From positions 434,821 through 498,820 of the forward strand of contig CAVYIU010000009.1 of NCBI GenBank assembly GCA_963768665.1: a stretch of DNA of 64,000 bases. The letters run 5' to 3'. This DNA is from an uncultured Spirochaetota bacterium. Lineage in GTDB: Bacteria > Spirochaetota > Spirochaetia > SZUA-6 > Fen-1364. The translations under genes and the position numbers were made by a program. Numbering within the stretch: position 1 is the stretch's first letter; every line of letters starts with the position of its first letter. Below, piece by piece: positions 20,234 through 47,451 of this stretch. The notes beneath the pieces were generated by a model. It was given only the letters and a program-made list of their open reading frames with translations. It ran no database searches and was not told the DNA's origin.

Positions 20234-20306
20234 TCCCCTGTAGCTCAGTCGGTAGAGCGGGTGGCTGTTAACCACTAGGTCGGCGGTTCGAGTCCGTCCG
20301 GGGGAG
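20234..20306 (+). tRNA. tRNA-Asn (anticodon GTT)
   Basis: Hand-folded cloverleaf: acceptor TCCCCTG/CGGGGGA, D-arm GCTC-AGTCGGTA-GAGC, anticodon stem GGTGG/CCACT with loop CTGTTAA, 5-nt variable loop, T-arm GGCGG-TTCGAGT-CCGTC, discriminator G. CCA is not encoded. Confidence 0.8.
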
Positions 20307-20335
20307 CGATAAGTCCTTTTATAATAAGGACTTAC

Positions 20336-20369
20336 AGGCCCTCGACGAAATCGAGGGCCTTTTTGTTTT
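20336..20369 (+). terminator. rho-independent terminator (GGCCCTCGA-cgaaa-TCGAGGGCC followed by a T-tract)
   Basis: Perfect 9-bp GC-rich stem followed by TTTTTGTTTT. It is preceded by a second AT-looped hairpin (AAGTCCTT-ttataata-AAGGACTT, 20311-20334) directly after the tRNA. Confidence 0.6.
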
Positions 20370-20405
20370 CGCCATTGGTATCAGATTGGTATCAGGGGGA
20401 AAGAG

Positions 20406-21607
20406 TTGAGAAGAAAGTATCCCGAACCGTGGAAGAGGCCAGGCAGTCCTTACTACCAGTGGTGGTACACAGATGCAGGCGGTAAGCGAGTGAGGATCTC
20501 GACCGGCCAGGTCTTGAAGGAAAAAGCGCGGGAGGAGATCAGAAGATACGTAGATAGGCTGACCGCAACGGCTGGCTTGACCACAACCACTTTTCGGGCC
20601 TATGCCGAACCATTCTTCCTATGGCAGACCTGCCCTCGTGTTGCACGTCTTCGTGATGAGGGCAAGAGCATCGGCAAGACACACGTGGCGAAAAGCCGTC
20701 GATGGCTTGAGACGTACGTCTTCGAGGACAAGGTGTTCTCCGACCTATCAATCAAAGAGATCAGGCGCGCAGACATCCTCGACCTGCGAAATAGGCTACG
20801 CGCAGCAAAGGAAGGCCGAACAAACACCGTGAATAAGGTGATCGCAACCATAAAGACCATCCTTAGTGAGGCAGCGTTCCGCCAAGACATTGATTTCAAT
20901 CCCGGGGCAGATGTCGGCAACATCAATTATCACAACTTGAACGAGGGACCTTCACTGTGGATGAGGTACGTCTGTTGCTTTCAGCGCGTCCAGGCGAGAT
21001 GAAGAATAGCCCTCTTGTTGATGTTGTCGTGACTGCTCTGCTTTGCACCGGTTGCAGGGCCGGTGAACTGCGAGCGCTTCGATGGGCCGCGGTAGATCTA
21101 AAGAGCGGAAGGACATCGATTTGCGAAGCATTCAAGAACGAGAAAGAAATCGGCGACCCCAAGTGGGGCAAGAAGCGCGAGATTGTTCTTCCTGGAATTT
21201 TACTGCAACGACTGAAGAAATGGCGAGAAACCAGCAGATTCAACTCGCCTGATGATTTCGTCTTCTCGACTCTTGATGGAGCTCCCCCCGGGCAAACTTG
21301 GATTCGGAATAATATGCTGAGGGTTCTTAAGAGCGCCGATGCCGACAAGGAACTGAACTTCAAGATCGGGGACCGATGGCTTACGCCTCATGCTTGTCGC
21401 CACACCATCAATAGTCACCTACTGGCCGCCGCGGTCCCAGCCTTGCTTGTACAGACCTTCCTCGGCTGGAGTTCGGAAGAAAATAGAATCCTAACCCGAG
21501 TCCAACGCTCATACACTGAGCTTAAGCTCTTCCGTCTCGAAGAGGTTGCTTCAAAGATCGACGAACTCTACGGTAAGAGAAAGGAACTGAAGTCGAAAAA
21601 CGCTTGA
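20406..21607 (+). CDS. tyrosine-type site-specific integrase (phage integrase family); frameshift near 20950-20960
   Basis: N-terminal SAM-like/arm-binding region, then a catalytic domain with TGCRAGELRALRW, HACRHT and a C-terminal Tyr. It is split between ORFs 20406..21002 and 20957..21607 and lies immediately downstream of the tRNA-Asn 3' end. Confidence 0.75.
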
Positions 21608-21713
21608 CCAGCCAGCGGCCGCAGACGACGGTCCTGCGCGAAAGCGCATACCTTGATAGGCGCGCTTCAGGAGAAGGGCGCTCGTACTCCGCCAGTTTGC
21701 CCTACGCTGAAAG

Positions 21714-21917
21714 TCAACCCTGCTTCTTGCTGCCTTGCGAGTTCTTGATTATCCACTCTGCGAGTCTGCCTTCAGGCACGCGTCGAGCTCGACCCAAGGT
21801 GACACTGGGCAATTCGCCCGATTCACACATGCGGTACACGGTTATGGGGGAGACGGCGAGCATCTCAGCCGCTTCTTTAATGCGAAGAAGCCGGATCGAG
21901 GACTTGCCGTCATCCAT
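21714..21917 (-). CDS. AlpA/excisionase-family helix-turn-helix DNA-binding protein
   Basis: 67 aa. LRIKEAAEMLAVSPITVYRMCESGELPSV is an Xis/AlpA-type HTH. Confidence 0.65.
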   Translation of the reverse strand: MDDGKSSIRLLRIKEAAEMLAVSPITVYRMCESGELPSVTLGRARRVPEGRLAEWIIKNSQGSKKQG

Positions 21918-22187: not shown

Positions 22188-22270
22188 ACGGATCTGCTGA
22201 GCGGGAGAGGTGCCAGCTTGAGGGGCTAGTGCCCGAAAGGGTGTGCTGGTTCAAGTCCAGTCCGCAGCAT
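22188..22270 (+). other. tRNA-like 3' fragment (T-arm GCTGG-TTCAAGT-CCAGT plus acceptor 3' strand CCGCAGC-A); putative att-site remnant
   Basis: A canonical T-arm and 3' acceptor half sit ~100 nt upstream of the second integrase. No complementary 5' acceptor strand (GCTGCGG) was found upstream, so it is not a complete tRNA. Confidence 0.35.
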
Positions 22271-22369
22271 CGCAAGTCTTTACGTCGTATTGACTTGCCG
22301 GGAGGGACCGAAAACGGACCTCCATGAACGCATCAACTGTGACACTATCTGTGACATTATTTCACGGAC

Positions 22370-23566
22370 GTGTCAGCCCAGAGGTGCTCCATGGAGAAGC
22401 CCAAACGTCCCTACTCGCTCTTCAAGCGACCCACCGCCAAACAGCAAACGTTCATCTACTACTGCCGATTCCGCGACGAGAACGGCGCCTACATGTCACC
22501 GATCTCCACGCTCCAGTTCTCCAAGGCTGCCGCGCGAAACTGGGCCGATCAGAAGCTGAAGGAAGGCAAAATCGTCCTTCCCGGCAAGCGAGGTACCCCG
22601 TTCGAGACCTTCGCCGCTGGCTTCTGGGACTACGAGGGAGAGTACATTCAGCGCAAGCTTGCTCGAGGCGGCCATTTCTCGAAGATCTTCGCCGAGATTC
22701 GGGCGGGACATGTCAAGAAATGGATCCTCCCCTACTTCTCAGGCCAACCAATCGGCAGCATCCGCCGCCACCAGATTGAGTCCTGGATCATGGGGCTGTA
22801 CAAGGACTCGGGGCTGGTCGGCGCAAGTGTCAACCGCGTGCTCGATTGCATGAAGGTAATGATGAAGGAAGCTCTTCGCCGCGGCTACATCAACACTGAT
22901 CCAGCAGCCGGCATAGAGTCCTTCACTGAGAAGTACAAGGTACGGGGAATCATCACACCGGAAGAGATCCAGGCTCTCTTCAGCAAGGAAGCGCTCTCGT
23001 TGGTCTGGAAGGAACAGCGTGTGCACTACGTCGCCTCGATGCTCGGGGTTGCTACTGGTCTGCGGCAGGGTGAGATCCGGGGACTTCGGAATCAGGATAT
23101 CCATCCAGATTACGTGGCTGTTTGCGGATCTTGGGAGGAGCGAAACGGTCTTCACGGCGCGAAATGGGGCTCGGAACGAATCGTCCCGATACCGTCCCGC
23201 GTTGCCGAAGAGGTCGACCTACTCGCACGGGCAGGAATGTACTCGGCCGCTGACGACTTGGTCTTTGCCGGCGAGGCCCGCGGAAAGCCAGTCCGGAAGG
23301 AAGAACTTGAGGCTCACTTCTACGCTGCTTTGGAGGCTATTGGGATCAACGATGAGGCGAGGAGGAGGCGTGTCCTCGTCTGGCATTCGCTGAGGCATAC
23401 GTTTTACTCCATCATGAAAGGCAGGATCGATTCGGCCAAGCTCATGAAGGTTGTCGGGCACCGCCAGGAGTCTACGAACCTCCAATACACTCATGCGCTC
23501 CCTCGGGACCTCGAGGAGGTCAGGGCGCTTCAGGAAGACCTTATCGGCAAAGCAGTCGGGAATTGA
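22370..23566 (+). CDS. tyrosine-type site-specific integrase (intact)
   Basis: 398 aa. It has an N-terminal arm-binding region and a core-binding domain. The catalytic domain carries R (LRQGEIRGLR), HSLRHTF and a C-terminal Y. The likely real start is MEKPKRPY at 22391. Confidence 0.8.
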   Translation: MSAQRCSMEKPKRPYSLFKRPTAKQQTFIYYCRFRDENGAYMSPISTLQFSKAAARNWADQKLKEGKIVLPGKRGTPFETFAAGFWDYEGEYIQRKLARGGHFSKIFAEIRAGHVKKWILPYFSGQPIGSIRRHQIESWIMGLYKDSGLVGASVNRVLDCMKVMMKEALRRGYINTDPAAGIESFTEKYKVRGIITPEEIQALFSKEALSLVWKEQRVHYVASMLGVATGLRQGEIRGLRNQDIHPDYVAVCGSWEERNGLHGAKWGSERIVPIPSRVAEEVDLLARAGMYSAADDLVFAGEARGKPVRKEELEAHFYAALEAIGINDEARRRRVLVWHSLRHTFYSIMKGRIDSAKLMKVVGHRQESTNLQYTHALPRDLEEVRALQEDLIGKAVGN

Positions 23567-23567
23567 A

Positions 23568-23942
23568 CTATTGATCCAGGTCCAGGCCCGGGCGATCCCG
23601 TACCGCCCGGGCAACACTCCTCGGGTCAGCTCGCTCCTCGGTCCGGGACATCACCAGAGCGTCAACGACCTCTTTGTAGCCCATGCGCACGGCAATCGAG
23701 TGCTCAAACACCTCCAGCGAGGTCGACCAGTCTGGCAGCGTGTCCAAGCCTTGGAGCCGCCCTCGCATGAACTGCAGCGGGTCCGTCCCAATCTGCGTAG
23801 CCTTCTCCAGGTCCGCGCGCGCCTGAACGACACCACTCAGTTCCGCGTCGTACTGCTCTCGCCAGTATTTGTCGGCCACCGACTGTCGCCTTCCCTTCCC
23901 GATCAGCCGCTCGATTTCACTTATGGCCTTCTCGACGTGCAT
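23568..23942 (-). CDS. hypothetical protein
   Basis: 124-aa ORF directly abutting the next ORF (23944..24417). No recognisable domain. Confidence 0.3.
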   Translation of the reverse strand: MHVEKAISEIERLIGKGRRQSVADKYWREQYDAELSGVVQARADLEKATQIGTDPLQFMRGRLQGLDTLPDWSTSLEVFEHSIAVRMGYKEVVDALVMSRTEERADPRSVARAVRDRPGLDLDQ

Positions 23943-23943
23943 G

Positions 23944-24417
23944 CTAAGGCCTCGCCCCGTTCGGCTCTGCGCTCATTTTCTCCAGCTCATGGACGAGGCG
24001 GTAGTACCCTACTGAGAAAGCCATTCCCTTCTTGAACCGAACGGGATCGCTCCATGCGCCGCTATCAAGCCACCGCAGGTATCGCTGCTTGAGGGCCTGG
24101 CAGATGAAGGCATGATTGCACCCTTTTCCCGCAAGCCTATGTAGAGCTGACAGAGCATCTTCCAACCCCCTCTCCTCATAGGTCTTGTACTCCAAATAGT
24201 AGGCATCCTCTTCGCCTCCGCCAGCGCTGAGACGCAGCCGAAGCACTGTTTCAAGGTCATGGTAGACGCCCACCAGATCCATTTCCTCTACCGTCCTAAT
24301 CGCTTCCTGGCATCGCAGGTTCGCTCCCTTCTCAGAGGTTGAGAATCGGCTCGCCCCTGAAGAAATGCACCACAGCCCAGAACAGCCACGGAGCTCGCCA
24401 ATAGACCATCCCAACAA
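23944..24417 (-). CDS. hypothetical protein
   Basis: 157-aa ORF with island-like GC and no recognisable domain. It may form one unit with 23568..23942. Confidence 0.3.
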   Translation of the reverse strand: MLGWSIGELRGCSGLWCISSGASRFSTSEKGANLRCQEAIRTVEEMDLVGVYHDLETVLRLRLSAGGGEEDAYYLEYKTYEERGLEDALSALHRLAGKGCNHAFICQALKQRYLRWLDSGAWSDPVRFKKGMAFSVGYYRLVHELEKMSAEPNGARP

Positions 24418-24874
24418 TGAAGGCCAGCGGAATCAGGATCTCGGCGATGCCCAAAGTGATCTGCCCAAGAAGGTGTCCCCAGGTCACCTGAAGCGGCAGG
24501 TGATTCCGTTCCATCCGGCCCGACGACAGCGTCATTTTCGTCCCCCTCCTTTCCAGCATGCTTGTCGGAATTCCCTGACCATGAGCACTGGGAGAACTCA
24601 CCTATCACTTGCCAATTATATACCAATGCTTTATATTCGTCAAACGCGATCTACATTTGAAGGCTCGGGATTCGGGCCGAAGGTGATCCAGGCGCTTGAG
24701 AACAAGAGACATTTGGGCTAAGCGAACCATGTCGATCACATGCCACGCTTCGGCCACCATCCACCATCCGTGGTAGGACGTCGTTGATTGTATCGCCAGT
24801 TATCGTCAACGAGAGATGCATAGCGACTATAGAAGGGACCTCCGCCCGCCACGATCTCTGCCAGTGGCATGTAT

Positions 24875-27656
24875 TTACCACCCCTTTCTTAGCACCTCCA
24901 ACACCTCGATCGGATCGATGACTCTAGGGTTGCTGTCCCAATCCTCGTCTAGGACTGCACTGTACTTCGCATCGAAAGGATTCACTTTCAAGGCCGTTGC
25001 CTGATCGATTCGCTTCGCTGCTTCCTGAGAATCGCCTACGGCCATGTCGATCCAGACGTCCTCGAGCGTGTCCGGAATCTGCCCGAACAGGCCGTGGATT
25101 GCCTCCAGTCTCTGCGAGAGAAGCTCATGGACTCGATCTTCTACGGAATTCCGATAGCGAAGGTTGGCGATCCACACATCAGGGAAGCGTTGGCCGATGC
25201 GCTGGATCCGGCCTTTTCGTTGTTCCAGCCGCGTCGGATTCCACGGCAAATCGATATGGATTAGGCTCCCAAGGCGCTGCAAATTCAGTCCTTCGGAAGC
25301 GGCATCAGTTCCGAGCAGAATCTTGATCTGGTTGTCCGCGACCATCCCCTTGATTTCGTCGCGTTCTGCTCGGCGGAAATTGCCACTCTCCCAGATGCCA
25401 GACCGACCTGAGCCGGCGTAGAGACCGATCATCTGTCTTCCGGTCAGTGGATGTGATGAGAGCCTTCGGCCGATCCAGGACACCGTATCGTAATACTGCG
25501 AGAAAAGGATGCAGCCACGATCCATCCAGGGGCCCGTAGCTGCCGATTGCTCATGAGATCCTTCGAGGAGATACCGGAACACTTCAGCGAGCTTGGGATC
25601 CTCCTCGTTCCCAGACTCAAGAAGCGTCTGGCAGCGATGCAGAGATTCGATTTCTTTCCCGGTAAAGTCGGAAAAGGAAGATTGTAGAGCCACGTCATCG
25701 AATAGATCTTCATCGTCTTCGGCATCCTCCGCTTCGCCCGCTTCAGCTTTGTCCAGCAAACGCCTAATCGTGATCCTGCCGGCCTACTAGGGAGCTTCCG
25801 GCCCGGCGAAGGAGGAGGGTCTTGAAAAAGCCTGCCGACTGCACTCGCTGCGCGAGAAGGCGACAGAAGGTCTCCGCTTCCCTGTAGGCGTCGGCGAGAT
25901 ATGGTCCCAGATCCAGCGCATCAGCTTTGCTTTCCCCGTACAGGACCACATGCACCGCAGGCAGGAAAGGCTCTTTTGTCACTGGATTCGTTGTGTTTTC
26001 CAGGTACTGCCTCGTCCGGCGGACAATGCACCGCAGGAGGGGATTATGCTTTGGTGGATATTCCTTGAGCCAAGGACCCTCAATCTTGTTCCTTCCCGGA
26101 AGGCCAGGGGGATACGGCCATAGTCCTCCGGGAGAAGCGTCCATTTTCCCGGGTCCATTTCAAACCTGTCACGAATATAGCGGATCACATCTGCGCCGTC
26201 CTCGCTTGCGTAGATTACTGGGTCCCGAATGTAGTTCCAAGCATCACCTGGGTGGTCCGGAAGGGGCTTTGCCCTGGTGGCGATGTCCAAGCATTCGGCG
26301 GGCCTCCACCATGGACTGATCCTCATGACCTGCTCCCCCAATACCGAAGGATGTCCGAGGGCCAGCACACTCAAGAGGTCCCATGCCTCGACTGGATGCA
26401 ACTGAACGGGGGTCGCGGTTGCGAGGAGCATGGAACGAGCCCTAGGAGATATTTTCTGAAGGAACTCCATGAGCTTGTTCGGATCGGCTTTTTCATTCAC
26501 TTCGTCGGCGACAGCGCCGACTTTTGGTATCTTCCGTCGGCGCGCCCTATGTGCCTCATCCGCGATGATACAGAGATAGTCGCGGCCAAGGAGGATATCC
26601 CAGACCTCCTTCCGCCCTCGGGTGACGAGCCCTTGCGAGACGAGACCGAAGCGGCGCGGACAAGAGGCGAGTCCCTCAATCCCCCGTGAGGGATATTCAA
26701 CTCCGTTCTCGTCGATCCATGCGTTTCCCGACCAGCGCGCCGATGGCATCCTCAATAGGTCCAGCATTTCTACCTGCCACTGCCCGAGTAGAGCCTTGGG
26801 AGCCAGAATCAGGATCGGCCCTGGGCCTTCGAGGGCCATGAGGAGGGGCTGCCATGGCCAGTTGTACGGTTTTGCCGAGCCCCACCTGGTCCGCCAAGAC
26901 CAGCCTGGCGGAAGCGCGGCGGTGTCTCTCAATCGCAAGTCGAATGAAGTACTTCTGGTGAGGCCAGAGCCCCTGCTCGCGTCGGTAGACCGGACTTTCA
27001 ACCGCCACTACCGATGGTTCGGGTTCCTCCTTCCACGCTTTGATGGCAATGACCTTCCGGCGGGCCAAACGCCCGAGGTCGGCGCACACGAAGGGGCAGC
27101 AGGCAAGGTCTACCGCCCGTTTGTCGTGCCATAGTGCATCAAATTCTCTTGCAACCCAAGACACCGCGTCAGGGCTATCGTCTTCCCAAAGAAGCTCATA
27201 GTTCAGTTTCCACGCCGTAGCACTTTCATTGACGCTGCCCAGGAATGCGGTTGCTCGACCGTCGGGGTACCGGATGAGGCCGGCCTTCCCGTGGATAAGG
27301 CCAAAGACCTCGTCTGGCAGGACCTTAACCTGGAGACGACCACTCGACAGGAAGCGATACAGTGCTTCGATTCGGGGCTGAGCGGCCGCGGGCAACTTCT
27401 CCGGCTCCCCTCGACACCAACTTGATCGCATCGCCTGCTGCGCAGCCTGGGCGGTCATAACGTCCCGAGCATCAAGGTCTGAATTGCAGACGATCCTAAT
27501 CGGGCCTGAAACCGCATCTAGCTCCTCGCCTGCGATTTCAAAAAGGCTGGAGCGGAAGTAACCGGCGATGCGGTCGTATGAGGAGGCGCCTGTCAACCGC
27601 GCACGGAGGACGTCAGTACCAAGGGCTTTGCTTCGCGAGGAGTGGCGCGTGATCAT
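24875..27656 (-). CDS. PLD-family nuclease domain fused to SNF2-family helicase (defence-cassette helicase); multiple frameshifts; the N-terminal boundary is approximate
   Basis: N-terminus has IAGYFRSSLFE, HGKAGLI and GSVNES (PLD-like HxK...GSxN). It is followed by SNF2 motifs LADQVGLGKT (I), DEAHRAR (II), LLATATPVQ (III), and helicase-C motifs LLGTDAASEGLNLQ and QRKGRIQRIGQ. The gene is spread over ORFs 26697..28649 (distal part), 25979..27001, 25764..26144 and 24875..25759. Confidence 0.7.
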
Positions 27657-30592
27657 CCGTGGTCCCCGCGCAGCAGGCCGGGCAAGCAAGCGGGCAGACT
27701 CCGTATCCTCCTTCCAATCCTCCATCCCTACGATTTGACCGAGAGGAGCAAGCCAGTCCAGGATGGAAATGAGCCTTTGAGCTGACTGCCAGTAGTCGGG
27801 CAGCTCAGTCTTCAGGTAGCGAAGGCCTGCACCCGGGTTCTCGTCCCGGACAGAAGCCTGGATGGCAAAGAGCAGTTGTCGCAGGACGCTCCCTCCGAAA
27901 CCGTCGGCTCCCAAAGGGCCCAGATCGCGGTTGCCAAATTCGGAAGCGGTTTTTATGCGGGTTTGGTTCGCAGTGCCAGAAGCTAGGATAGGCTTCACCT
28001 CCCGCACGCCGAAACCACGGGCAAGCTCCTGGTAGACCCCTTGGCGTCGCTCGCCCCGGCTTTCCACGTCCAAGGCCCGCAGATACAGCCGCTCATCGGG
28101 ATTGAGGCGTTTCCATACATCCTCAAGGCCACGCGGCACGAGGTAGTCGCAGGCGATCGCGATGGCCCGATCAATAACCTGCTCGAAGCGCGGCTTCGGC
28201 GGCAGGTCCGCCTTTGATCGGCCCTTCCCGCGGGGGCGTTCCGGCACCGCCCGGAAAAGCTCGTAACTCACATCTTGCCCGTCTAAGGTTTGATACTGGG
28301 TAAGAACACGGAGAGCGGCTGCATAGGCCGCAAGCTGGTAGTCGGTGTCCCCAAAGTTCGGATCTGACGCGTCGTCTAGGGCACGCATCGTGTCGATCTG
28401 ACGTTTCACCTCGTCTTCTACGACCGGGTAAAGCTCATCAAGAAAGGCGTTCTCCGCGTGGAGCCGCTTGCGGAGCACGAGAAGCACCGTGCCCTGAACG
28501 TAGTTGCCCTTTTTGATGCCCCCGGCGGGCGTCTCCGTAGCGATTGTCCAAGCCCCGCTAACCTTGAGTCCGGATGCCCAGAGGATCATGCCGAGGTCGG
28601 CCCAGACTGCCCGGACTCTGATGCGTGAACATGACGAGTTGAAGTCCATTGTCGGGCATGTGTTTGGTCAGGTTTGCATAAACGTCCACCATCCCATGCT
28701 TGAAGTCATCGCCGGAGCCCTGCACCGCCAAGGCCTTGCGGCCATCGGGAATCCATTCGGGGAAGGCCTTGGGAAGTAGTTTTTCATACCAAGCCAGAAA
28801 ATAGTCGGCCAGTTCGTGGTAATTGACCGCGTCAGCATAAGGCGGGTCGGTAATCCAAATGTGGTTGGGGACAGTAATAGAGCGGGCGTCCATAGGCTCA
28901 GTCTTGCCGACAGTAACCTCCAAATCATTAGCTCTATCAAATAGTGGCCAGGCTGTGCTAAGTTTAGAAATCGGGCGTACGCTGAAGTTATAGAAGGTGT
29001 TCAAGGCTTGGTTGCTGAAGACGTGAGAACCACCTTCATTCGCGGCATTTGACATCCAAATGCATAACTTAGAATTCCAGTCAACGACCCTTCCAATACC
29101 CAACATCCCTGCGGCCAGGAGTCTGCCTCGCGACATGTATTCGGCCGCAATCAGCCCATTCACTATCAACTGGCGCGGTGTAAAAAGATGATGCCAGTGA
29201 GTCCATCCACGTGTTCGTATCGGCTCATCGGTCTTCTCCCCATCCGTTGGGATGGCCATGGAGGGGAGGTATCCTTCCCCCCACCATTCCTCGAGGCGCT
29301 CTCTCAGAAGCCTAAGAACCTTCTGCTCATTTTTCAGATCAAATTCGCTGGGAGCCCGATATTCCTTTGTCCCGTCGGGCTTCCGCCAGCGGATGCAGTA
29401 GAGGCGCTCCTGGAACACATCAGTAGGGCGCGGAACGAGGTCGTTCTTTTCCCAGCGGCGAAGACCCCCCGGACCCCGAAGGCTTTCCATCGGCCAGGAG
29501 CGATCACGGTTGGTAGGATCGATCACCCGACTGTCTATTGCTGTGCCAGTGCTGCCACTCGCGGCTGCAGTCCAACTGGCCTTGTCAGGTTTGGTGATGA
29601 TCTCAATATCAATGTGATCGCTTCCCTTCCGTTTCAGTTTCGCAATGACCTTCGTCCGCTCCCCTATCATCCAACTCGGTGCCAAGGGGATGTGGTATTG
29701 GCACCCTTCGGGCTTAACTTCCACGCAATACAAGTACGCTTCCGCCTGCCAGCCTTCCTCGCTTCTTTCGATTCCCCAGGCCGCAACTTTCTCTTCGGCT
29801 GCACGGAAAGCCGTTTCCTGCGCAGCGATTACCTGTTGCTGTATCTCTTTGCCGCCGCCCACAAGGTTGAGGCTGGCCCAGGTAAGGAGCGCGGCCACGG
29901 GATTGAGGTCGCTCCCGTATGCCTCGCAGCCTAGCCGCGCAGCTTCGAAAGGGATTGAGCCCCCGCCGCAGAAGGGATCTCCGACCTTCGGCCTCTGACC
30001 GAAGCTCCGTTTCCCCAATTCAACAACGAGATCCTGGAGCGTAGATGCCTTCGTGCCCAGATGGGCGTTGATCTCGGCCCAAGCAGATACATCCGGCCCG
30101 GTATGCTGTTCAGGCCTCACGCAAAAGCTGATACGTTCTGCGTAGGGCAAAGCCCTGAACTCTTCTCTTGAATAAGGGAAGCGCCGAAGTGCATCAAGCT
30201 CTGTTCTTGCAGTGCCATCCAAGGACTCCCAGATCTCCGAGCGCATTTCCTCGCGCCGCTCCTCGTCGGCTTCTTTCCATTCTTCTCTGTAGGACGGCGC
30301 CCGGTTGAGCAATTCCCGGTCCGGGATGCTGGCCTTGCGCCTCTCCCACAGGCCATCGTCGTCCATCGTTAGGAGCTTAAGAAAGACATCACGGTCCTTT
30401 GCCGGATCCCCGGCTTGCGGGCATGAGAAGCCCCAAAATGCTCGCCCTGACCAGGATCAGAGGCTTGCGCCCCCACCACTTCCCTAAGCCAGTGAGAGTT
30501 TGCCCGAGATTCGCCTTCCGCTCCTTGTAGCTTTCTGCGGAGAGACGGGCGATGGGGAACTGGCTTTCAATGAAGGTACGATCGTCTGTCAC
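27657..30592 (-). CDS. DUF1156-family putative N6-adenine DNA methyltransferase; at least 2 frameshifts; boundaries approximate
   Basis: N-terminal DUF1156 signature RTFIESQFPIARLSAESYKERKANLGQTLTGLGKWWGRKPLILVRASILGLL. MTase motif I is DPFCGGGSIPFEAARLG and motif IV is ITDPPYADAVNY. The frame is broken near 30370-30390 and near 28560-28650, and the C-terminal region continues into the first ~330 codons of ORF 26697..28649. Confidence 0.7.
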
Positions 30593-30873
30593 TCCGTGAG
30601 TCCTCGCTTCGGCAGCGTTCGGATTTGCCAATTCGAAGAGAATCCGAGAGATTGGGGGTGACTTGGTCGAAGGCGTGTATGAAGGGGCCCGGGTCGTGGA
30701 GGTCATGCCCTCATACGGCGAACAATGTGTCAACACAAGAGGCAGTGTGCTTTGAGTTGTGCCCACGCGGCTCCGATCAGGGCCCTTCGAAGGCTGTGAG
30801 TATCTCGATGCTCCGGCAACGAGAGCATCCTCGCTCCACCCGCTCTGCGTCGGCATGCCGCCAGGGCCCACGG

Positions 30874-31491: not shown

Positions 31492-31495
31492 TTTT

Positions 31496-34400: not shown

Positions 34401-34583
34401 CAGATGGCGAAAAGCCCTGTCGATGAGTGTCTTCATGCCTTCAGTCATGTAGTTTTCGAGAAAGAACTCTGCGCCGTTCACTTGTCCATTTAGAAATGTG
34501 TCCAGGTTCAGGACAGTGGCGCGGCGATCCTGACGAAACACAGATGGCCGAGGCTTGCAGACTGATGACAGTGAGTTTGACAC
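31496..34583 (-). CDS. DUF499-family P-loop ATPase (large, about 1029 aa); frameshift near 33830-33880
   Basis: Walker A QAMGGGKTHSM and Walker B IIILMDELSP near the N-terminus. Coding continues in ORF 31496..33877. The size matches DUF499 proteins (about 1000-1100 aa). Confidence 0.7.
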
Positions 34584-38279: not shown

Positions 38280-39101
38280 TTATCGGGCGGACTTCAAAGC
38301 ATCTAAGGCGAGACCGACTGCCGTGACATGGATGGAGGCGCCGGAAATCGCGTCGGAGGTACCGTCAGCCCTTACAGCGATCTTGGCTGGATCCTGGGCT
38401 TTCAGAATGGCGTCTTGCACCGCGGCGGCCTGGACATTCCACTCGCCCTTTTTGGCTGCCGCGGCCAGTCCGTAGCGACCTCCGAGGGCTTCCACGAGCT
38501 TCGATTTCTTGGTGGCGTCCTTGTAGGTGGCGTTCCACAGCACATCGACAATGGTGCCATTCACCACGGTAATAAGCACCGAGTCCTTCCACCCCGAGGT
38601 GGCGTCGAACGTCGCCTGCTCTTTGAAGAACCAGCCGTCCTTCCTGTAAATGCCTTTAGCGACAGGGCCCGCAGCGATGGCCTTATTCACAAGAACGAAA
38701 AAATTGGCTACGTGAAGTGAGGCGCCAGAAATCGCGTCAGTGGTTCCGTCGGTCTTGATCTTGTTGAAAGCCACGTCCTGCGTCTTGATCAAGTATGCTT
38801 CGACGTTTGCCGCCTCTTGGTTCCATTCCAGCCCGAGCTTGGACGCCTTGATCATTCCGTAGCCCCCCGCAGCCGCCACGGTCTTCTTGTCCGCTACGCC
38901 CGTGTTGGAGACTCCGTTCCAGTTCACCTTAATGATCTTGCCACCTGAAACGGTGACCACGACCTGCTCTTTCCAGCCGCTGTCAGGAGCGAAGTTCGCG
39001 TCCTGCGCGAAGTACACGCCGTCCTTTGCTTTGGCCTGCGCGAAAGTAAGGCCGGAAGCAACGACCGCAAAGAGCAAGCCTATTGCGATGGTCTTTTTCA
39101 T
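38280..39101 (-). CDS. secreted/lipoprotein with two FMN-binding domains (PplA-like extracellular flavoprotein)
   Basis: Signal/lipoprotein peptide MKKTIAIGLLFAVVASGLTFAQA. Two repeats each carry the flavinylation-type motif TDAISGASLH / SDAISGASIH. The likely real start is at 39101. Confidence 0.65.
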   Translation of the reverse strand: MKKTIAIGLLFAVVASGLTFAQAKAKDGVYFAQDANFAPDSGWKEQVVVTVSGGKIIKVNWNGVSNTGVADKKTVAAAGGYGMIKASKLGLEWNQEAANVEAYLIKTQDVAFNKIKTDGTTDAISGASLHVANFFVLVNKAIAAGPVAKGIYRKDGWFFKEQATFDATSGWKDSVLITVVNGTIVDVLWNATYKDATKKSKLVEALGGRYGLAAAAKKGEWNVQAAAVQDAILKAQDPAKIAVRADGTSDAISGASIHVTAVGLALDALKSAR

Positions 39102-39968
39102 GAAACAGTCCTCCTCGGGGGGTGTAGGCCCCAACGATAGTGCAAAGAGTGGAACGTGTCAACCGCAAAGGAGGCAGCGAGTGCCGAGTTGCGAACGGTT
39201 TGCCCAACGAATATACAACGCTGCGGTCAGCCGCTAAGTAGGAAGGCCAGTAATGACTGCGGCTTCATGGTTCCAAACATATCGACGTCGAAGGACTGGA
39301 CGACACATTCCTCTCTCCAGACTGCTGGGACTTTGCCCATTCTACTTTCCTCCCGCAGGAACTCTCCGTCGCAGGGTCTGCGCTCATCAATTCGGCTGAG
39401 CCCGATTCGCCAAAACAACTGGTATTTCAGAGCTTGCGCCCAGGTACCCCAACGATCGTGTTGGGCAGTGGACGGCTTAAATCACGGTCTCTCCAATCCT
39501 GTGCTAGGTCAAGTCGCCTTTTTCGCAGTTGGGCGATTTCGCCCATTTGGGGCAGCGCTTTTTCCTTGCCCGCCGGGGACTGTTTTGTCGCATGGATGCC
39601 GAGATCGCTGAGTCGTTCTCCCCTGCCTTTGGACACGACGTCCGACGTGGTGCGGACGGGCGTCCCTCCCATTGCAACGGTTCGGCGGTAGTGGCAAGAA
39701 CAAGTTCGCCATGGTGACGAACACCTTGTAGCTCGAGCAGAAACTCGTCGGTTAGGGTTGGGTGTCATATTCCGCGGGTTGTCGTCAACGTAGCCAGGTT
39801 GCGGCGGCACGCCCACCCTTGGATACACCCTTTCCCATGACAGGAGTGCCACTTGAAGGGCTTGGCTCATCTCTTGCTGCCTTCCGATAGGTCGACCTCT
39901 CCAATAGCTTGATATCCTACAACCACTGAATATGATGTTAGGCTGCCCCAAGAAAAGGACTGCACACA

Positions 39969-40880
39969 ATGCCAAAAAGGACGAACGCATTCCAGCGGCT
40001 AATCCTCGCCATATACGAGCAACTGAGCGCGCCGGGTGGCTCGATCACCGAGTCGGCCATGCTACCCGAGCGCTCTGGCGGAACCCTCCGCGAGGTAGAC
40101 ATCCTGCTTCAATCTCGGCTCTTCGGCATCGACCTTAAGATCGCGGTCGAGTGCAGAGGACGCAAGGACCGAGATGACGTCACATGGATCGACGACCTAA
40201 TAGGCAAGTACCACGACTTGCCGGTCGACAAGGTCATTGCCGTATCAAAGTCAGGCTTCAGTGCCGGGGCAGCCGCCAAGGCTGCAGCATTCCGTATAGA
40301 GACACTTACCCTGACGAAGGCGTTGGAGACCAACTGGCCGGCTCAGTTCGCAAAACTGGGCCTCGCCCTGTTGACCCGACAAGACATACCAGTGTCGGTC
40401 GCCATAGCTACTTCCCCAGCGGCGCCTCTTACCCTGACGCCATCGACAATCGTCTTTGGTGGGGACGGAACTCCTTTAGGTGGAATAGAAGGATTGGGCC
40501 AAGCCCTGTATCGGCAAAAGCTTCCCGACATACACAAGGCTGTGCTCGAAAACGCACCCCGCCTTCTCAAGACGCTGCAAGACGTAAAGGAGAAACGCCT
40601 GTCGCTCGAGATGACGCATGGCCTCTCATCGCCGTGCTATGTCGTAGCGGATGATGGTAGCACCAAGCTTTACATACAGACCGTTACCGTGCAGCTGCAA
40701 TGTGCCTTCACCGTTGAACTGCTGAAAGTCGACCATTACGTTCTTGGGAACTCTCAGATTACGACGGCTACCGCGGGGCCGCCAGGACAACCAGTATCGC
40801 TCGTGGCTGTCCAGTCTACAGACAAGCCAAACCAGGCAACCTTCCGGATAACCGGACAGCCGAACTGGCCCTCCACATAG
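39969..40880 (+). CDS. restriction-endonuclease-like (Mrr-cat, PD-(D/E)xK) domain protein with uncharacterised C-terminal domain
   Basis: N-terminal EVDILL ... IAVECRGRK ... fits a PD-(D/E)xK core. It is flanked by low-coding sequence. Confidence 0.45.
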   Translation: MPKRTNAFQRLILAIYEQLSAPGGSITESAMLPERSGGTLREVDILLQSRLFGIDLKIAVECRGRKDRDDVTWIDDLIGKYHDLPVDKVIAVSKSGFSAGAAAKAAAFRIETLTLTKALETNWPAQFAKLGLALLTRQDIPVSVAIATSPAAPLTLTPSTIVFGGDGTPLGGIEGLGQALYRQKLPDIHKAVLENAPRLLKTLQDVKEKRLSLEMTHGLSSPCYVVADDGSTKLYIQTVTVQLQCAFTVELLKVDHYVLGNSQITTATAGPPGQPVSLVAVQSTDKPNQATFRITGQPNWPST

Positions 40881-41096: not shown

Positions 41097-42155
41097 TCAC
41101 CCCTGCCTCGGTGAGACCTTTTCTGGTTCTTTGTACGGCTCGTTCTTCTTCAGCACCCAGAACGCGGACTCTGCCAGGTGCCGAGCCACAGCACCTATGG
41201 CTACCGAGGAGCCCTTTCGCCCGCGAACATGAAGGTACAGCCTGGCGCAGTGTCGCGTGCTCCACCCCCGCTGAGCATGGTGAGCGGCCACCGCATTGGC
41301 CGCTTCGATGAAAGCCCACTTCAGGTACTGGTTGCTTTCGGTTCTCATCCTGCCGTAGTGTGTCTTGCCTCCGCTGGAGCTCACGCGGGGGGTCGTGCCC
41401 GAATAGCTGGAGAACTGTGGGGCACAGGGAAAGCGCTCGATGGTGCCCACCTCCCGCTCGATGACGATGGACAGGATGTCTGCCACCCCTGGCAGACTCT
41501 TCAGCAGCCGCATGTTCGGGGTAAGGGCAATCTGCTCGCGAATGCGCTCTTCCAGTTCAGCGATCTGCAGGCTGAGGAAGTCCAGCAGTTGCAGGTGCTG
41601 CGACAGACAGCGCCCTGTCTCAGAAGGGAGGCGGGCAACAGTTGTCTCAAGCCATGCTCGACCCCCCTTGGAGAACACGCTCACCCCCTCCGCGGGTGAC
41701 AGGGCGTACTTGGAAAGCAGAGAGTGGATACGATTTTTGATGGATGTACGCCACGCGCACAGAGCCACGCGCGTACGAGGCAACTCGCGTTGGTCACGGA
41801 GATTCGCCGGTGGCAGCCAGACCGAGGGCAGGCTGCCGAGTCTCAAAAGAGTGGCCAGTCCGTTGGCATCCAGTTTGTCGGTCTTGTTGACGTGACCCAT
41901 GAGAAGCTTTGCCTTGGAAGGGTTGGTGAGCAGGGGCTGGCACCCTGCAGCTTCGATCTCATCGGCGATCCAGTACCAGTTGCCCACGCACTCCAAGGCC
42001 ACGGGGGTGCCGCTGGGAAAGCGAGAGAAGAATGAGGACACCGCACCGGGCTGGTGGTTGAGGCGGACACGATCAAGGACTTGGCCCGCGGCGTCCTGGA
42101 CCTCAAGCTGGGAATAGTGCTTGTGCGCGTCACACCCGATGGAAAGCGATTGCAT
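41097..42155 (-). CDS. IS110-family transposase
   Basis: N-terminal DEDD-type LSIGCDAHKHYSQLEV. C-terminal Transposase_20-like LLKSLPGVADILSIVIEREVGTIERF. About 350 aa. Confidence 0.8.
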   Translation of the reverse strand: MQSLSIGCDAHKHYSQLEVQDAAGQVLDRVRLNHQPGAVSSFFSRFPSGTPVALECVGNWYWIADEIEAAGCQPLLTNPSKAKLLMGHVNKTDKLDANGLATLLRLGSLPSVWLPPANLRDQRELPRTRVALCAWRTSIKNRIHSLLSKYALSPAEGVSVFSKGGRAWLETTVARLPSETGRCLSQHLQLLDFLSLQIAELEERIREQIALTPNMRLLKSLPGVADILSIVIEREVGTIERFPCAPQFSSYSGTTPRVSSSGGKTHYGRMRTESNQYLKWAFIEAANAVAAHHAQRGWSTRHCARLYLHVRGRKGSSVAIGAVARHLAESAFWVLKKNEPYKEPEKVSPRQG

Positions 42156-42401
42156 AGCGAACCTCCTCGCGGGCACAAAAGGCCCGACTACGCTCGACTG
42201 TAGCGAGGAATGCCGCGCTGTGATATTATCATGTCGTTGCAGTTGTCGCCTTAACGTGGTTATTCGTGCGGCGGGGGCGGTCTAGGAGCGCGTAGGGTAT
42301 AGCAGGGACGCGATGGACCTCTGCGGCAGCTGGCTGCCGATCGAGCCCAGGGCGCCGCGTTCATCTGGTAGTGAACTCTCACATCCCGTCCTCTTTGGTG
42401 G

Positions 42402-43916
42402 CTACCCCATGCACGGAAGCTCATGCAACGCGTTTTCAGGGCCTTCAATCATCCTGTGACGGAACAGTTTCAGCAGATTGTGCGTCAGGCAGACGAAGGC
42501 CCATTCGCGGCGCACCTTCGCGCGCCCGCGTTGTGAGAACCTACGGAAGCCGCGCGCCTGCTCAATCTGCCCGAAGACGGGTTCCACGATCACCTTGCGC
42601 CGTGAATACACCAACTTGCCCGCGCTCCCTTTCAGTTTCTCACGCATGAGAGTCTTGGGACTCTGCTGCCCAGCAGAACCCCCCGATGGGACGGCGGCCT
42701 CAGTCCTCTCGCGGCCGACGGCGATGTAGGGATCAATCCCACGCTCCTGCACCTTTTGCACGTTGTCTGCTGAAAAGTAGCCGCTATCAGCCAGAAGCCT
42801 CTGGGGCCGCTGGGCATGCATGCTGAGCATTCTCTCCACCATCGGCACCAGGTACTCCTGGTCGGGAGACTGGTTGCTCACCCCGTGGGCGATGATCACC
42901 TGGTGAGCTGCATCCACGATGACCTGTGCGTTGTAGGCCTGGATGTAGGCCCCGTCCTTGACCATGATGCAGCTCTCTGGATCTGTGAAGTTGCGTTGCG
43001 CTGCCGCCTTGGGCTTGCCGTCCATCTCGCTGGCTACCCGATGCAAGGGCAACTCTGGCTGCCTACTTCCCTTCTTCTTTTCGCTGTTCCTCTCGGGAGC
43101 AAGGGCGTCGGCCTGCTGGCTGGCTTTCGCCGCGCGGGTGCGTGCACGTTTGCGCTCGTGGTCCGCCAGCGCTTCGCCCTCGCTTTTGGCGCTCTGCCGC
43201 TGGGCCTGCTCGCGCAACTCCTCAGCTCTGGTTTCGGCGGCTTCCTTTTCCAAGGCGGCCTTCGCCTCGCGAAGCCGCAGCAAGCGTGTCTCCCGTCGGG
43301 CCAATTCCTCAGGCAGATCCTCTTTGTCCTGCCCGGGCCCGTACAACTCATCCTCCTCCCGATCCACCTCATCGGCGCGTCGCAGCAGCTCCGCCACCTG
43401 CTCCTGTAGACGTTTCTCTTCCTCGTTCATCCGCTTGTAGCTCATCGCCTTGTGCTTGCTCGCTGCCGCCTTGATCTTCGCCCCATCCAGCGCTACTGCC
43501 CCCAGCTTCACCAGTCCGGCCTCCTGGCACAGGCGCAGCGCCTCCACGAACAGCCTGCCCAGCGCTTCCCCGTGCTCCAGTCGAAACTGGTTGATCGTGG
43601 TGAAGTGCGGATGCTGGCCACCACTGATCACTCGAAAAGCCACATCTTCATGCGTGGCCCGCGCAATTCGCCGAGAGGAGAACACCCCAACACTATATCC
43701 ATACACCAGAAGCCCCGTCATCATTCCGATCGCGTAGGGCCTCTCCCCGCGGTGATCCTTGCGTTGGACCTCATCCTCGATCTCGCCCAGATTCATCTGC
43801 TCCATCACATCCAGCACGAAGTAGGCCAGGTGTTTCGGGGGCAGCCATTCCAGCGGAGACGGGGGCAATAGGTATGGTTGTCGCGGCTCCCAAGGGCGAT
43901 AGTTTTTCTCTCCCAC
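42402..43916 (-). CDS. IS1182-family (IS5-related) DDE transposase
   Basis: N-terminal DUF772-like region (LLPPSPLEWLPPKHLAYFVLDVM ... MMTGLLVYGYSVGVFSSRRI), a K/E-rich coiled-coil middle, and a C-terminal DDE region (LLADSGYFS). 504 aa. Confidence 0.75.
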   Translation of the reverse strand: MGEKNYRPWEPRQPYLLPPSPLEWLPPKHLAYFVLDVMEQMNLGEIEDEVQRKDHRGERPYAIGMMTGLLVYGYSVGVFSSRRIARATHEDVAFRVISGGQHPHFTTINQFRLEHGEALGRLFVEALRLCQEAGLVKLGAVALDGAKIKAAASKHKAMSYKRMNEEEKRLQEQVAELLRRADEVDREEDELYGPGQDKEDLPEELARRETRLLRLREAKAALEKEAAETRAEELREQAQRQSAKSEGEALADHERKRARTRAAKASQQADALAPERNSEKKKGSRQPELPLHRVASEMDGKPKAAAQRNFTDPESCIMVKDGAYIQAYNAQVIVDAAHQVIIAHGVSNQSPDQEYLVPMVERMLSMHAQRPQRLLADSGYFSADNVQKVQERGIDPYIAVGRERTEAAVPSGGSAGQQSPKTLMREKLKGSAGKLVYSRRKVIVEPVFGQIEQARGFRRFSQRGRAKVRREWAFVCLTHNLLKLFRHRMIEGPENALHELPCMG

Positions 43917-44258
43917 ATCAAAAGAGAACCAGATCCAGGTGAGAAAGTAAAATCCCCGGGCGTTCCCTTGGGGTCGCCACGGGCATCTACGCCCTACGCG
44001 CTCCTAGCGCAGACCCTGATCGTAAGCCTTGTCCTTGCTCGCTGGGCTCTCCCGGCTATGGGCGTTCATCGAAGTATCTACTTCATAGCGCATCTTATAG
44101 GCGTCGCCTTTCCTACCGTCACGAGCTTTGTGGGGCACGAGTATATCACTTTTGGACGCTATTCTGTCGACGCTCTGGTTGGAGGTTTTTTGAAAGCTTT
44201 TGGAAAATCACGGCAGGGTGGACATTCGTAGGTGCCGCGAGCCATCGACCACGAGGGT

Positions 44259-47448: not shown

Positions 47449-47451
47449 GCG

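What the first reader, a model, noticed from the sequence alone, without database searches (positions are those of the whole stretch)
20234..44000. Genomic island inserted at the tRNA-Asn 3' end, with two tandem tyrosine integrases
The core-like region (67-68% GC: metK, rSAM, tRNA-Asn) ends exactly at the tRNA 3' end (20306).

Downstream, in order:
- two stem-loops;
- a frameshifted integrase (20406..21607);
- an oppositely oriented AlpA/Xis gene;
- a tRNA-like 3' fragment;
- a second intact integrase (22370..23566);
- then lower-GC cargo: the DUF499/DUF1156 defence cassette, the DGQHR pair, the PplA-like flavoprotein, the Mrr-like gene, and the IS110 and IS1182 transposases.

This looks like serial, piggy-backed integration, with a decayed older element and a newer one carrying defence cargo. 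I could not locate the attR direct repeat of the tRNA-Asn 3' end, so the distal boundary is unresolved. It lies somewhere between about 37.5 kb and about 46.5 kb.
Basis: partly seen in the sequence, partly recalled or inferred. Interest (0 to 1): 0.6.

Follow-up and report, generated by a model that had tools for sequence, protein, structure and literature searches.

The report
Mosaic genomic island at tRNA-Asn
About 30 kb of foreign-looking DNA sits next to a tRNA-Asn gene and joins the integration modules of two unrelated mobile-island families, one specific for tRNA-Asn and one for tRNA-Leu; this is an ordinary kind of genomic island, and the "decay" seen in it is probably an assembly artefact.

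Summary
This includes tRNA-Asn(GTT), two hairpins, a split integrase (int1), an AlpA-type excisionase gene, a tRNA-like fragment, an intact second integrase (int2), and defence and IS cargo. There is no attR copy of the tRNA-Asn end.

Three corrections:
1. The fragment (22212-22269) is the exact 3' part of tRNA-Leu(GAG), from the anticodon stem to the 3' end. In four other genomic contexts, int2 homologues (72-80% nucleotide identity to the window here) sit directly after a complete tRNA-Leu(GAG). So int2 belongs to a tRNA-Leu island family with defence cargo. This is not a tandem array at tRNA-Asn.
2. int1 and alpA form a tRNA-Asn module shared with related genomes. Two of these are collinear with the window up to the tRNA and differ after alpA, so this is a recurrent integration hotspot.
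3. Single-base frameshifts also break ftsH and another conserved core gene, at a similar density to the island. The split int1, the six breaks in the DUF499/DUF3780/DUF1156/PLD-helicase system and the break in rmlB are therefore probably assembly indels. "Decayed older element" is unsupported.

Composition places the distal edge at about 49.9 kb (the rmlB stop), not 37.5-46.5 kb. Verdict: a new member of a known kind, of low to moderate interest.

The parts
20234..20307 (+). tRNA-Asn(GTT), the left anchor (attL side) of the island
   Evidence: ARAGORN and Rfam RF00005 at 67.8 bits. The same tRNA precedes int1 homologues in L069-L073.
20310..20365 (+). Two conserved stem-loops after the tRNA. 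The second is followed by a T-run and looks like a terminator.
   Evidence: Fold of -29.4 kcal/mol, z = -6.5. Compensatory changes are seen in relatives.
20375..20394 (+). Direct repeat TTGGTATCA-N2-TTGGTATCA just upstream of int1. These are candidate arm-type integrase binding sites (inferred).
   Evidence: These are the only exact copies in the window. The repeat is conserved in L069, L072 and L073.
20406..21607 (+). int1, a tyrosine integrase of a tRNA-Asn-associated family. It is read in two frames, with a shift near 20940-20948 at GAGGGA.
   Evidence: Pfam Phage_int_M and Phage_integrase. Frames are shown. The repaired protein aligns with int2 across the junction and with full-length 400-401 aa homologues. 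tblastn with the L069 protein gives frame +3 then +2.
21714..21917 (-). AlpA/excisionase-type HTH protein (67 aa), linked to int1 in relatives
   Evidence: TIGR01764 and phrog_66. Homologues lie next to int1 in L069, L071, L072 and L073. Homology to L072 runs to about 22167.
22212..22269 (+). 3' part of tRNA-Leu(GAG), from the 5' strand of the anticodon stem to the 3' end. It is the att core of the int2 element.
   Evidence: It matches 55 nt of the complete tRNA-Leu(GAG) genes of L058, L059, L061 and L063 exactly. All homology to int2 loci starts at 22212. ARAGORN and Rfam do not call it as a tRNA.
22338..22356 (+). TGTGACA-N5-TGTGACA pair, candidate arm-type (P') sites for int2 (inferred)
   Evidence: It is present about 120-135 nt after the core, upstream of every int2 homologue. 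It occurs nowhere else in the window.
22391..23566 (+). int2, an intact tyrosine integrase of a tRNA-Leu(GAG)-specific island family
   Evidence: Pfam and phrog_1. Protein homologues of 391 aa reach 76-87% identity. Only 23% identical to int1.
23568..24485 (-). Two small ORFs (23568-23942 and 23944-24417) that complete the conserved left-end module of the int2 element
   Evidence: Nucleotide homology to L056/L057 (86.6%) and to L074 ends at 24485. They have no family matches.
24875..34583 (-). Four-gene DUF499 ATPase / DUF3780 / DUF1156 N6-methyltransferase / PLD(HKD)-helicase anti-phage system, with six frame breaks in the sequence as given
   Evidence: PADLOC and NCBIfam NF042961-NF042964. 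tblastn of the intact Thermomicrobium roseum cassette maps breaks near 33876-33919, 30413-30432, 28607-28612, 26842-26847, about 26066 and about 25788. The system is described as the Type-2 BREX-related system in PMC12839542.
35387..37446 (+). DGQHR-domain (DndB/DpdB-like) protein plus an overlapping 308-aa partner of unknown family
   Evidence: TIGR03187 at 149.8 bits and Pfam DndB. The partner has no match.
38280..39134 (-). FMN-binding, PplA-like protein (weak match)
   Evidence: Pfam FMN_bind, E = 3e-4. NF041941 PplA at 33.8 bits, far below its cut-off.
39969..40880 (+). Mrr_cat-domain restriction-endonuclease-like protein
   Evidence: Pfam PF04471 at 24.6 bits (cut-off 21).
41097..42176 (-). 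IS110-family transposase
   Evidence: Pfam DEDD_Tnp_IS110 and Transposase_20.
42282..44007 (-). IS1182-type insertion sequence with 21-nt terminal inverted repeats and a 504-aa DDE transposase
   Evidence: Inverted repeat I13, 90% complementary. Pfam DUF772 and DDE_Tnp_1.
46358..49920 (+). rmlA-rmlC-rmlD-rmlB (dTDP-rhamnose synthesis), still in the low-GC block. rmlB has a frame break near 49620 and its true stop is near 49920.
   Evidence: Pfam. Three-frame translation and a fine GC profile show GC rising from 0.60 to 0.66-0.70 at 49.9-50.0 kb. Tetranucleotide profile.

Best explanation
Window 20308 to about 49920 is a roughly 29.6-kb mosaic accessory region at a tRNA-Asn integration hotspot. 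It is built from at least two unrelated integrative islands.

- Module 1 is tRNA-Asn, two hairpins, TTGGTATCA repeats, int1 and alpA, ending at about 22167. It is a tRNA-Asn-specific integration/excision module also found at the same tRNA in related genomes.
- Module 2 abuts it and starts at 22212. It is the left end of a second island family: the tRNA-Leu(GAG) 3' fragment, TGTGACA repeats, int2 and two small ORFs, ending at 24485.
- The native target of the int2 family is the anticodon-loop region of tRNA-Leu(GAG). Its members carry variable defence cargo. Here the cargo is a DUF499/DUF3780/DUF1156/PLD-helicase system, a DGQHR pair and an Mrr-like gene (inferred to belong to module 2 from position only).
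- Homology to every int2 locus breaks exactly at the anticodon-stem edge, and the window has no int2 P-arm repeat pair to the left of it. The junction is therefore most likely a recombinant att junction (inferred). It would have been made by int2 acting on a non-tRNA-Leu partner inside or next to the resident tRNA-Asn element, or derived from a composite that once had an intact attP.
- Neither module has a recognisable right-hand att site in the window. IS110 and IS1182 insertions suggest later remodelling. The block is probably no longer a cleanly excisable unit (inferred).
- The frame breaks in int1, the defence genes and rmlB are most likely assembly indels, not decay.
For: - **Composition.** GC and tetranucleotide content switch at 20.3 kb and back at 49.9 kb.
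- **int1 family and tRNA-Asn.** Five loci have tRNA-Asn(GTT) followed by an int1 homologue. L069 and L073 are collinear with window 9136-18769 at 68-83% nucleotide identity. They share int1 (74.5% and 69%) and alpA, but nothing of window 22.2-49.9 kb. GC also drops after the tRNA in both. L072 shares 85.9% identity across 20190-22167 but has a different upstream gene.
- **int2 family and tRNA-Leu(GAG).** A complete tRNA-Leu(GAG) lies directly upstream of int2 homologues in L058, L059, L061/L063 and L074-L076. The window carries only the 3' 58 nt, of which 55 nt are identical. Homology starts at 22212 in every comparison.
- **Arm-type repeats.** The TGTGACA-N5-TGTGACA pair is conserved after the core in all loci. 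A second pair lies left of the core only in L056/L057/L060. The window's left flank is not homologous to that arm (z = 0.6).
- **Defence cargo in the family.** L058 carries a type I R-M system. L074 carries a methyltransferase, GmrSD_N, RelA_SpoT and a second methyltransferase.
- **Assembly quality.** ftsH and a second conserved core gene are frameshifted relative to L069.
Against: - No right-hand att site for either integrase was found, so neither element's extent is demonstrated.
- The right edge rests on composition alone. The rml genes could be a native low-GC polysaccharide locus rather than island cargo.
- The left core half-site GCCAGC is shared with L056, where attP looks intact. The window junction could therefore descend from an unrecombined attP with a lost P arm, not from a secondary-site integration.
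- No close relative (over 90% identity) with an empty site was available.
- Assigning the defence cargo to module 2 is positional only, because homology to other int2 islands stops at 24485.
- That the frame breaks are assembly errors is inferred from the core-gene breaks. It was not shown with reads.
Confidence: 0.55

Rival explanations
1. A single composite element with two adjacent integration modules, attP(Asn)-int1-alpA and attP(Leu)-int2. It entered here through int1 at tRNA-Asn, leaving the int2 attachment site unused. The element could choose either tRNA target depending on the host.
For: L056/L060 shows the same stacking behind a different tRNA. It has tRNA-Arg(CCT), a 465-aa integrase, then an int2 att site that keeps TGTGACA pairs on both sides of the core, which is an intact attP. 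The window shares the GCCAGC left core half-site with L056.
Against: The window lacks the left TGTGACA pair, and its left flank is not homologous to the L056 arm. int1 and alpA occur in L069, L071 and L073 without int2. No attR(Asn) was found in the window.
Confidence: 0.2
2. A chromosomal rearrangement. An int2 island originally at tRNA-Leu(GAG) and a separate tRNA-Asn island were joined by an inversion or deletion. One endpoint was at the int2 attL core, produced either by int2 or by illegitimate or IS-linked recombination.
For: The junction lies exactly at the att core. IS110 and IS1182 are present in the block. Gene order to the right of the tRNA differs completely from L069 and L073, and the only shared gene type (PCMT) is in the opposite orientation at 44% identity.
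Against: It would destroy a tRNA-Leu(GAG) gene unless a second copy exists. There is no reciprocal junction in the window. This cannot be told apart from the best explanation with 64 kb.
Confidence: 0.15
3. One reading: a classical tandem (accretion) array at tRNA-Asn, with an older, decayed int1 element and a newer int2 element that integrated at the same site.
For: Two co-oriented integrases follow one tRNA with a tRNA-like fragment between them.
Against: The fragment comes from tRNA-Leu(GAG), not tRNA-Asn. int2 homologues use tRNA-Leu(GAG). No tRNA-Asn fragment exists anywhere in the window. The 'decay' is matched by frameshifts in ftsH and another core gene.
Confidence: 0.03
4. The low-GC block is not an island but native, vertically inherited DNA of unusual composition, or a mis-join in a metagenome assembly.
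For: int1 and alpA diverge from relatives about as much as the flanking core genes do. int1 is 72-75% identical at the protein level, against 63-88% for core proteins. There are no att repeats. The rml genes are ordinary cell-envelope genes.
Against: Two integrases, an excisionase, two IS elements and defence genes are concentrated in the block. The composition break falls exactly at the tRNA end. The cargo is absent from the syntenic relatives L069 and L073. The left junction (tRNA-int1) is reproduced in independent assemblies, so it is not a mis-join.
Confidence: 0.07

Closest known systems
tDNA-integrated genomic islands as defined by Islander (Hudson, Lau and Williams 2015, PMC4383910), with the anticodon-centred 'A' class of att sites
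   Same: An intact tRNA gene is followed by a co-oriented tyrosine integrase, and the composition is atypical. The int2 module carries the tRNA 3' part from the anticodon stem onward, as in class A attP sites (for the definitions).
   Different: No displaced fragment of the same tRNA marks the far end. The internal fragment belongs to a different tRNA.
Tandem island arrays and accretion at one attachment site (Islander 'tandems'; SGI1 tandem and secondary-site integration, PMC2297512, listed but not read)
   Same: Two integrase modules lie head to tail after a single tRNA.
   Different: In true tandems each member has a fragment of the same tDNA. Here the two modules have different specificities (tRNA-Asn and tRNA-Leu(GAG)).
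Islands with a tRNA-integrase-AlpA layout, such as E. coli CP4-57 (ssrA-intA-alpA) (from my own knowledge)
   Same: A tyrosine integrase next to the tRNA plus a small AlpA/excisionase-type HTH protein.
   Different: alpA is oppositely oriented here and in L072, but co-oriented in L069, L071 and L073. Membership of the P4 integrase subfamily was not tested phylogenetically.
Type-2 BREX-related (DUF499-centred) defence system (PMC12839542), related to Hma; NCBIfam NF042961-NF042964
   Same: The same four genes in the same order as the intact Thermomicrobium roseum cassette: DUF499 ATPase, DUF3780, DUF1156 N6-methyltransferase and PLD/HKD-helicase.
   Different: There are six frame breaks in the sequence as given, and no stop between the methyltransferase and PLD frames. 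Whether these are real is unknown.

Membership tests
tDNA-integrated genomic island (Islander definition) | Intact tRNA/tmRNA gene at one end with an adjacent tyrosine integrase gene | tested here: met
   tRNA-Asn is at 20234-20307 and int1 starts at 20406.
tDNA-integrated genomic island (Islander definition) | Displaced fragment of the same tDNA, in direct orientation, at the other end | tested here: not met
   There is no second copy of the tRNA-Asn 3' end in 64 kb at up to 3 mismatches in 18-24 nt, or by blastn-short. The rest of the contig could not be searched.
tDNA-integrated genomic island (Islander definition) | Atypical composition and absence of the cargo from related genomes | tested here: met
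   GC and tetranucleotide content break at 20.3 and 49.9 kb. The syntenic relatives L069 and L073 share nothing of 22.2-49.9 kb.
Tandem island array at one tDNA | Each member has its own integrase and its own fragment of the same tDNA | tested here: not met
   The fragment between the integrases is tRNA-Leu(GAG), with 55 of 55 nt identical to complete tRNA-Leu genes.
int2-family tRNA-Leu(GAG) islands (defined here from related loci) | int2 homologue preceded by the tRNA-Leu(GAG) 3' segment and the TGTGACA-N5-TGTGACA pair | tested here: met
int2-family tRNA-Leu(GAG) islands (defined here from related loci) | Complete tRNA-Leu(GAG) gene at the left junction (canonical integration) | tested here: not met
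   The first 27 nt of the tRNA are absent. ARAGORN and Rfam find no tRNA there.
Type-2 BREX-related / DUF499-DUF3780-DUF1156-PLD-helicase system | All four genes present, adjacent and in the conserved order | tested here: met
   PADLOC and NCBIfam hits cover the profiles end to end across the ORF pieces. tblastn with the T. roseum proteins agrees.
Type-2 BREX-related / DUF499-DUF3780-DUF1156-PLD-helicase system | Uninterrupted reading frames (a functional system) | tested here: inconclusive
   There are six frame changes. Core genes ftsH and another are broken in the same way, so sequence error cannot be separated from decay.
Prophage or integrative conjugative element | Phage structural or packaging genes, or relaxase and type IV secretion genes | tested here: not met
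   Pfam, NCBIfam and PHROG scans of the ORFs gave only integrase and excisionase as mobility functions, plus IS transposases. Many small ORFs have no match.

The most novel reading that the evidence does not exclude
int2-type modules may be recurrently 'stacked' directly behind a resident integrase of a different tRNA specificity: tRNA-Asn/int1 here, and tRNA-Arg(CCT) with a 465-aa integrase in L056, where the int2 attP is still intact with both arm-site pairs. This could reflect islands that carry two alternative integration modules for two tRNA targets. It could also reflect an integrase family that preferentially lands next to other integrase modules.
Probability: 0.15. Interest if true: 0.55.

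Novelty: new member of a known kind. Interest (0 to 1): 0.3.

Why it matters
As an island it is ordinary. Three things are useful:
1. It gives a worked example of how a 'tRNA-like fragment' between two integrases can mislead. Identifying which tRNA the fragment comes from changes the model from tandem accretion to a mosaic of two island families.
2. It defines a tRNA-Leu(GAG)-specific integrase family from uncultured bacteria. The family has a conserved att core, candidate arm sites and variable defence cargo, and could be used to map such islands.
3. It warns that frameshifts in this assembly cannot be read as pseudogenisation, which affects any other finding from this contig.

Tried and rejected
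- **Genome scan for an empty site.** I scanned genome contigs with the protein just upstream of the tRNA (18907-20163). There were 49 loci, none with a tRNA-Asn nearby and no synteny. That gene is itself an insertion relative to L069 and L073.
- **Exact look-ups.** Look-ups of window proteins found nothing, although identical proteins are listed on a 654-kb contig. The source contig could not be read beyond the window.
- **Contexts of the closest homologues** of that protein (79% and 75%) showed no synteny.
- **Viral-contig scans** with int2 and int1 gave no relatives.
- **Relaxed Rfam search** of 21900-22400 did not recognise the tRNA fragment. Comparison with related loci was needed.
- **P-arm test.** I tested whether the window's left flank is a diverged copy of the L056 P arm. 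It is not significant (z = 0.6). An apparent TTTGACATCG match is part of the int1/alpA-module homology shared with L072.
- **att and arm-site searches.** I searched for paired arm-type motifs or att cores that would mark a right end. None was found.
- **Phase variation** as a cause of the frame breaks was rejected, because the G/C runs are only 3-5 nt long.
- **tmRNA gene.** I checked whether it anchors a second island. There is no integrase and no repeat of the tmRNA 3' end.
- **NCBIfam and PHROG scans** of the unknown ORFs returned nothing informative.
- **The second recombinase of L069** is unrelated to int2.

Full report
**1. What is in the sequence**

ARAGORN and Rfam place a tRNA-Asn(GTT) at 20234-20307 on the + strand. 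GC is 0.62-0.71 in every 1-kb window up to 20 kb. It falls to 0.50-0.62 from 20 to 50 kb and returns to 0.63-0.66 at 50-54 kb.

A tetranucleotide comparison assigns every 3-kb window from 19-22 kb through 47-50 kb to the 'island' profile. Windows before 19 kb and from 48 to 54 kb get the 'core' profile. The 44-50 kb stretch was in neither training set.

Directly after the tRNA are two stable hairpins (-29.4 kcal/mol, z = -6.5). Both are kept by compensatory changes in relatives. A TTGGTATCA-N2-TTGGTATCA direct repeat follows and occurs nowhere else in the window.

Next come these features:
- **int1** as two ORFs in different frames, 20406-21002 and 20957-21607.
- **A 67-aa excisionase/AlpA-type HTH gene** on the minus strand, 21714-21917.
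- **A tRNA-like segment.**
- **int2**, an intact integrase at 22391-23566.

No second copy of the tRNA-Asn 3' end exists in the 64 kb.

**2. The fragment is tRNA-Leu(GAG), and int2 belongs to a tRNA-Leu island family**

Homologues of int2 at 76-87% protein identity were found in metagenomes, and their contigs were read.

In four independent contexts a complete tRNA-Leu(GAG) gene lies immediately upstream of the integrase. These are L058, L059, L061/L063 and L074-L076. Here their integrase regions are 72-80% identical to the window at the nucleotide level.

The window's 22215-22269 is identical over 55 nt to the 3' part of those tRNA genes, from the anticodon stem to the 3' end. Nucleotide homology between the window and every such locus begins at exactly 22212. 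The first 27 nt of the tRNA are absent from the window.

A TGTGACA-N5-TGTGACA pair lies about 120-135 nt after the core in all loci. I interpret it as arm-type integrase sites; this is inference.

The module shared with L056/L057 (86.6%) and with L074 ends at 24485, after two small ORFs of unknown family. Beyond that point each island has different cargo, much of it defence-related:
- L058: a type I R-M system.
- L074: a methyltransferase, GmrSD_N, RelA_SpoT and a second methyltransferase.

This matches the anticodon-centred class of tDNA att sites described for Islander (PMC4383910).

**3. Non-canonical contexts of int2**

Besides the window, two other contexts lack the tRNA 5' half.

- **L056/L057/L060.** The int2 module follows tRNA-Arg(CCT) and a 465-aa integrase. 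A second TGTGACA pair lies 147 nt to the left of the core. An att core with arm pairs on both sides is what an unrecombined attP looks like.
- **L065/L068.** These have a third, unrelated left flank.

In the window there is no left-hand pair. The left flank is not homologous to the L056 arm (z = 0.6). Up to about 22167 it is instead 86% identical to the int1/alpA locus L072.

The window junction (22167-22211) is therefore better read as a recombinant junction at the int2 core than as an intact attP. Descent from an L056-like composite with later loss of the arm cannot be excluded.

**4. int1 and alpA form a tRNA-Asn module shared with relatives**

The repaired int1 is 401 aa. It matches full-length 400-401 aa proteins at 88% and 74% identity over 99-100% of its length. 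It aligns with int2 across the frame junction at only 23% identity.

All five contigs read for int1 homologues have tRNA-Asn(GTT) immediately upstream.

L069 and L073 are collinear with window 9136-18769. The shared genes are mfd, ftsH, a class I aminoacyl-tRNA synthetase (PF00579) gene, pfk, metK and a radical-SAM gene, at 68-83% nucleotide identity. Both share int1 (74.5% and 69%) and an alpA homologue. Neither shares anything of window 22.2-49.9 kb. GC drops after the tRNA in both relatives too.

L072 shares the module at 86% identity, but its upstream gene has no similarity to the window.

None of these loci has a repeat of the tRNA-Asn 3' end within the 3-10 kb available downstream.

So tRNA-Asn is a recurrent hotspot in this group. 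It has a conserved integrase/excisionase module and variable DNA behind it.

**5. The frameshifts are probably not biology**

Using the L069 proteins as references, ftsH in the window changes frame at about 13265. The sequence is CCGCCCGG where CCGGCCCGG would keep the frame. A second conserved gene changes frame at about 10881.

That is 2 breaks in 8.75 kb of verified core coding sequence. The low-GC block has 8 breaks in about 18.6 kb of verified coding sequence:
- int1: 1
- DUF499: 1
- DUF1156 methyltransferase: 2
- PLD-helicase: 3
- rmlB: 1

A binomial comparison of the two densities gives p = 0.52.

All the breaks sit in short G/C-rich runs. A related assembly with similar contig naming (L073) also has fragmented metK and radical-SAM genes.

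An essential gene broken in the same way argues that these are consensus indels of the assembly. The contrast between a 'decayed older' and an 'intact newer' element has no support.

**6. Cargo and right edge**

Window 24875-34583 (minus strand) encodes a known four-gene anti-phage system: DUF499 ATPase, DUF3780, DUF1156 N6-methyltransferase and PLD-helicase. NCBIfam NF042961-NF042964 and the PADLOC models match it, and it has the same order as in Thermomicrobium roseum. A 2026 survey describes it as the Type-2 BREX-related system (PMC12839542).

The rest of the block contains:
- a DGQHR (DndB/DpdB-like) protein with an unknown partner;
- a weak PplA-like FMN-binding protein;
- an Mrr_cat protein;
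- an IS110 transposase;
- an IS1182-type element with 21-nt inverted repeats at 42282-44007;
- a glycoside-hydrolase-like ORF;
- rmlA, rmlC, rmlD and rmlB.

After repairing its frame, rmlB ends near 49920. There GC jumps from 0.60 to 0.66-0.70.

No phage structural genes and no conjugation genes were detected.

The right edge rests on composition only. The rml genes could be native.

**7. Verdict**

It is a real, roughly 30-kb accessory block anchored at tRNA-Asn and composed of two unrelated island modules. It is not a tandem array at tRNA-Asn. The 'older decayed versus newer' ordering is unsupported, and the boundary lies further right than proposed.

It is a new member of a known kind.

The one mildly unusual point is that an int2 module also sits directly behind a different tRNA-linked integrase in L056. 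This leaves open a dual-module or 'stacking' behaviour that the present data cannot establish.

Noticed in passing
window 12005-13809 (-) and 10267-11126 (+): ftsH changes frame at about 13265, and a conserved 353-aa-type gene changes frame at about 10881, relative to the L069 orthologues. This points to indel errors in the assembly and affects every 'pseudogene' call on this contig.
   Followed up: yes
window 18907-20163 (+): The 418-aa gene between the radical-SAM gene and tRNA-Asn is absent from the syntenic relatives L069 and L073, where the tRNA follows the radical-SAM gene directly. It has host-like GC and no Pfam domain. Its homologues (up to 79% identity) are scattered over many phyla, in sugar-utilisation contexts.
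   Followed up: partly
window 21714-21917 (-) compared with L069 11431-11619 (+) and L073 12129-12323 (+): The alpA gene is inverted relative to int1 in the window and L072, but co-oriented with int1 in L069, L071 and L073. No flanking inverted repeats were identified.
   Followed up: no
window 54000-62413: A stretch of about 0.59-0.63 GC with an intermediate tetranucleotide profile abuts the 3' end of the tmRNA gene (62065-62413, minus strand). It holds an RHH/PIN toxin-antitoxin pair (54642-55373) and a caspase-like peptidase C14 gene (57356-58231). It has no integrase and no repeat of the tmRNA end. It may be an old tmRNA-linked island remnant.
   Followed up: partly
L056 7686-10000: tRNA-Arg(CCT) and a 465-aa integrase are followed by an int2 attachment site with TGTGACA pairs on both sides of the tRNA-Leu core. 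This is an apparently intact attP inside a chromosome.
   Followed up: partly
window 27656-27700 (-): The reading frame carrying the C-terminus of the DUF1156 methyltransferase runs into the PLD-helicase start without a stop. An ATGA stop/start overlap is visible in another frame, which suggests one more indel or a real fusion.
   Followed up: no
window 40989-41066 compared with L069 18363-18439: A 78-nt segment next to the 3' end of the IS110 transposase gene is 86% identical to a non-IS position in L069. It may be an IS110 end or target repeat.
   Followed up: no
window 20281-20300: The T-stem of tRNA-Asn differs from the relatives at three positions with pairing kept (GGCGG/CCGTC against GCTGG/CCGGC). 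The first 48 nt of the tRNA are identical in all.
   Followed up: no
window 7216-10947 (+): The longest ORF here (1243 aa, no Pfam match) overlaps minus-strand coding sequence that matches an mfd-like (TRCF) gene of L069. It is probably a spurious high-GC ORF.
   Followed up: no
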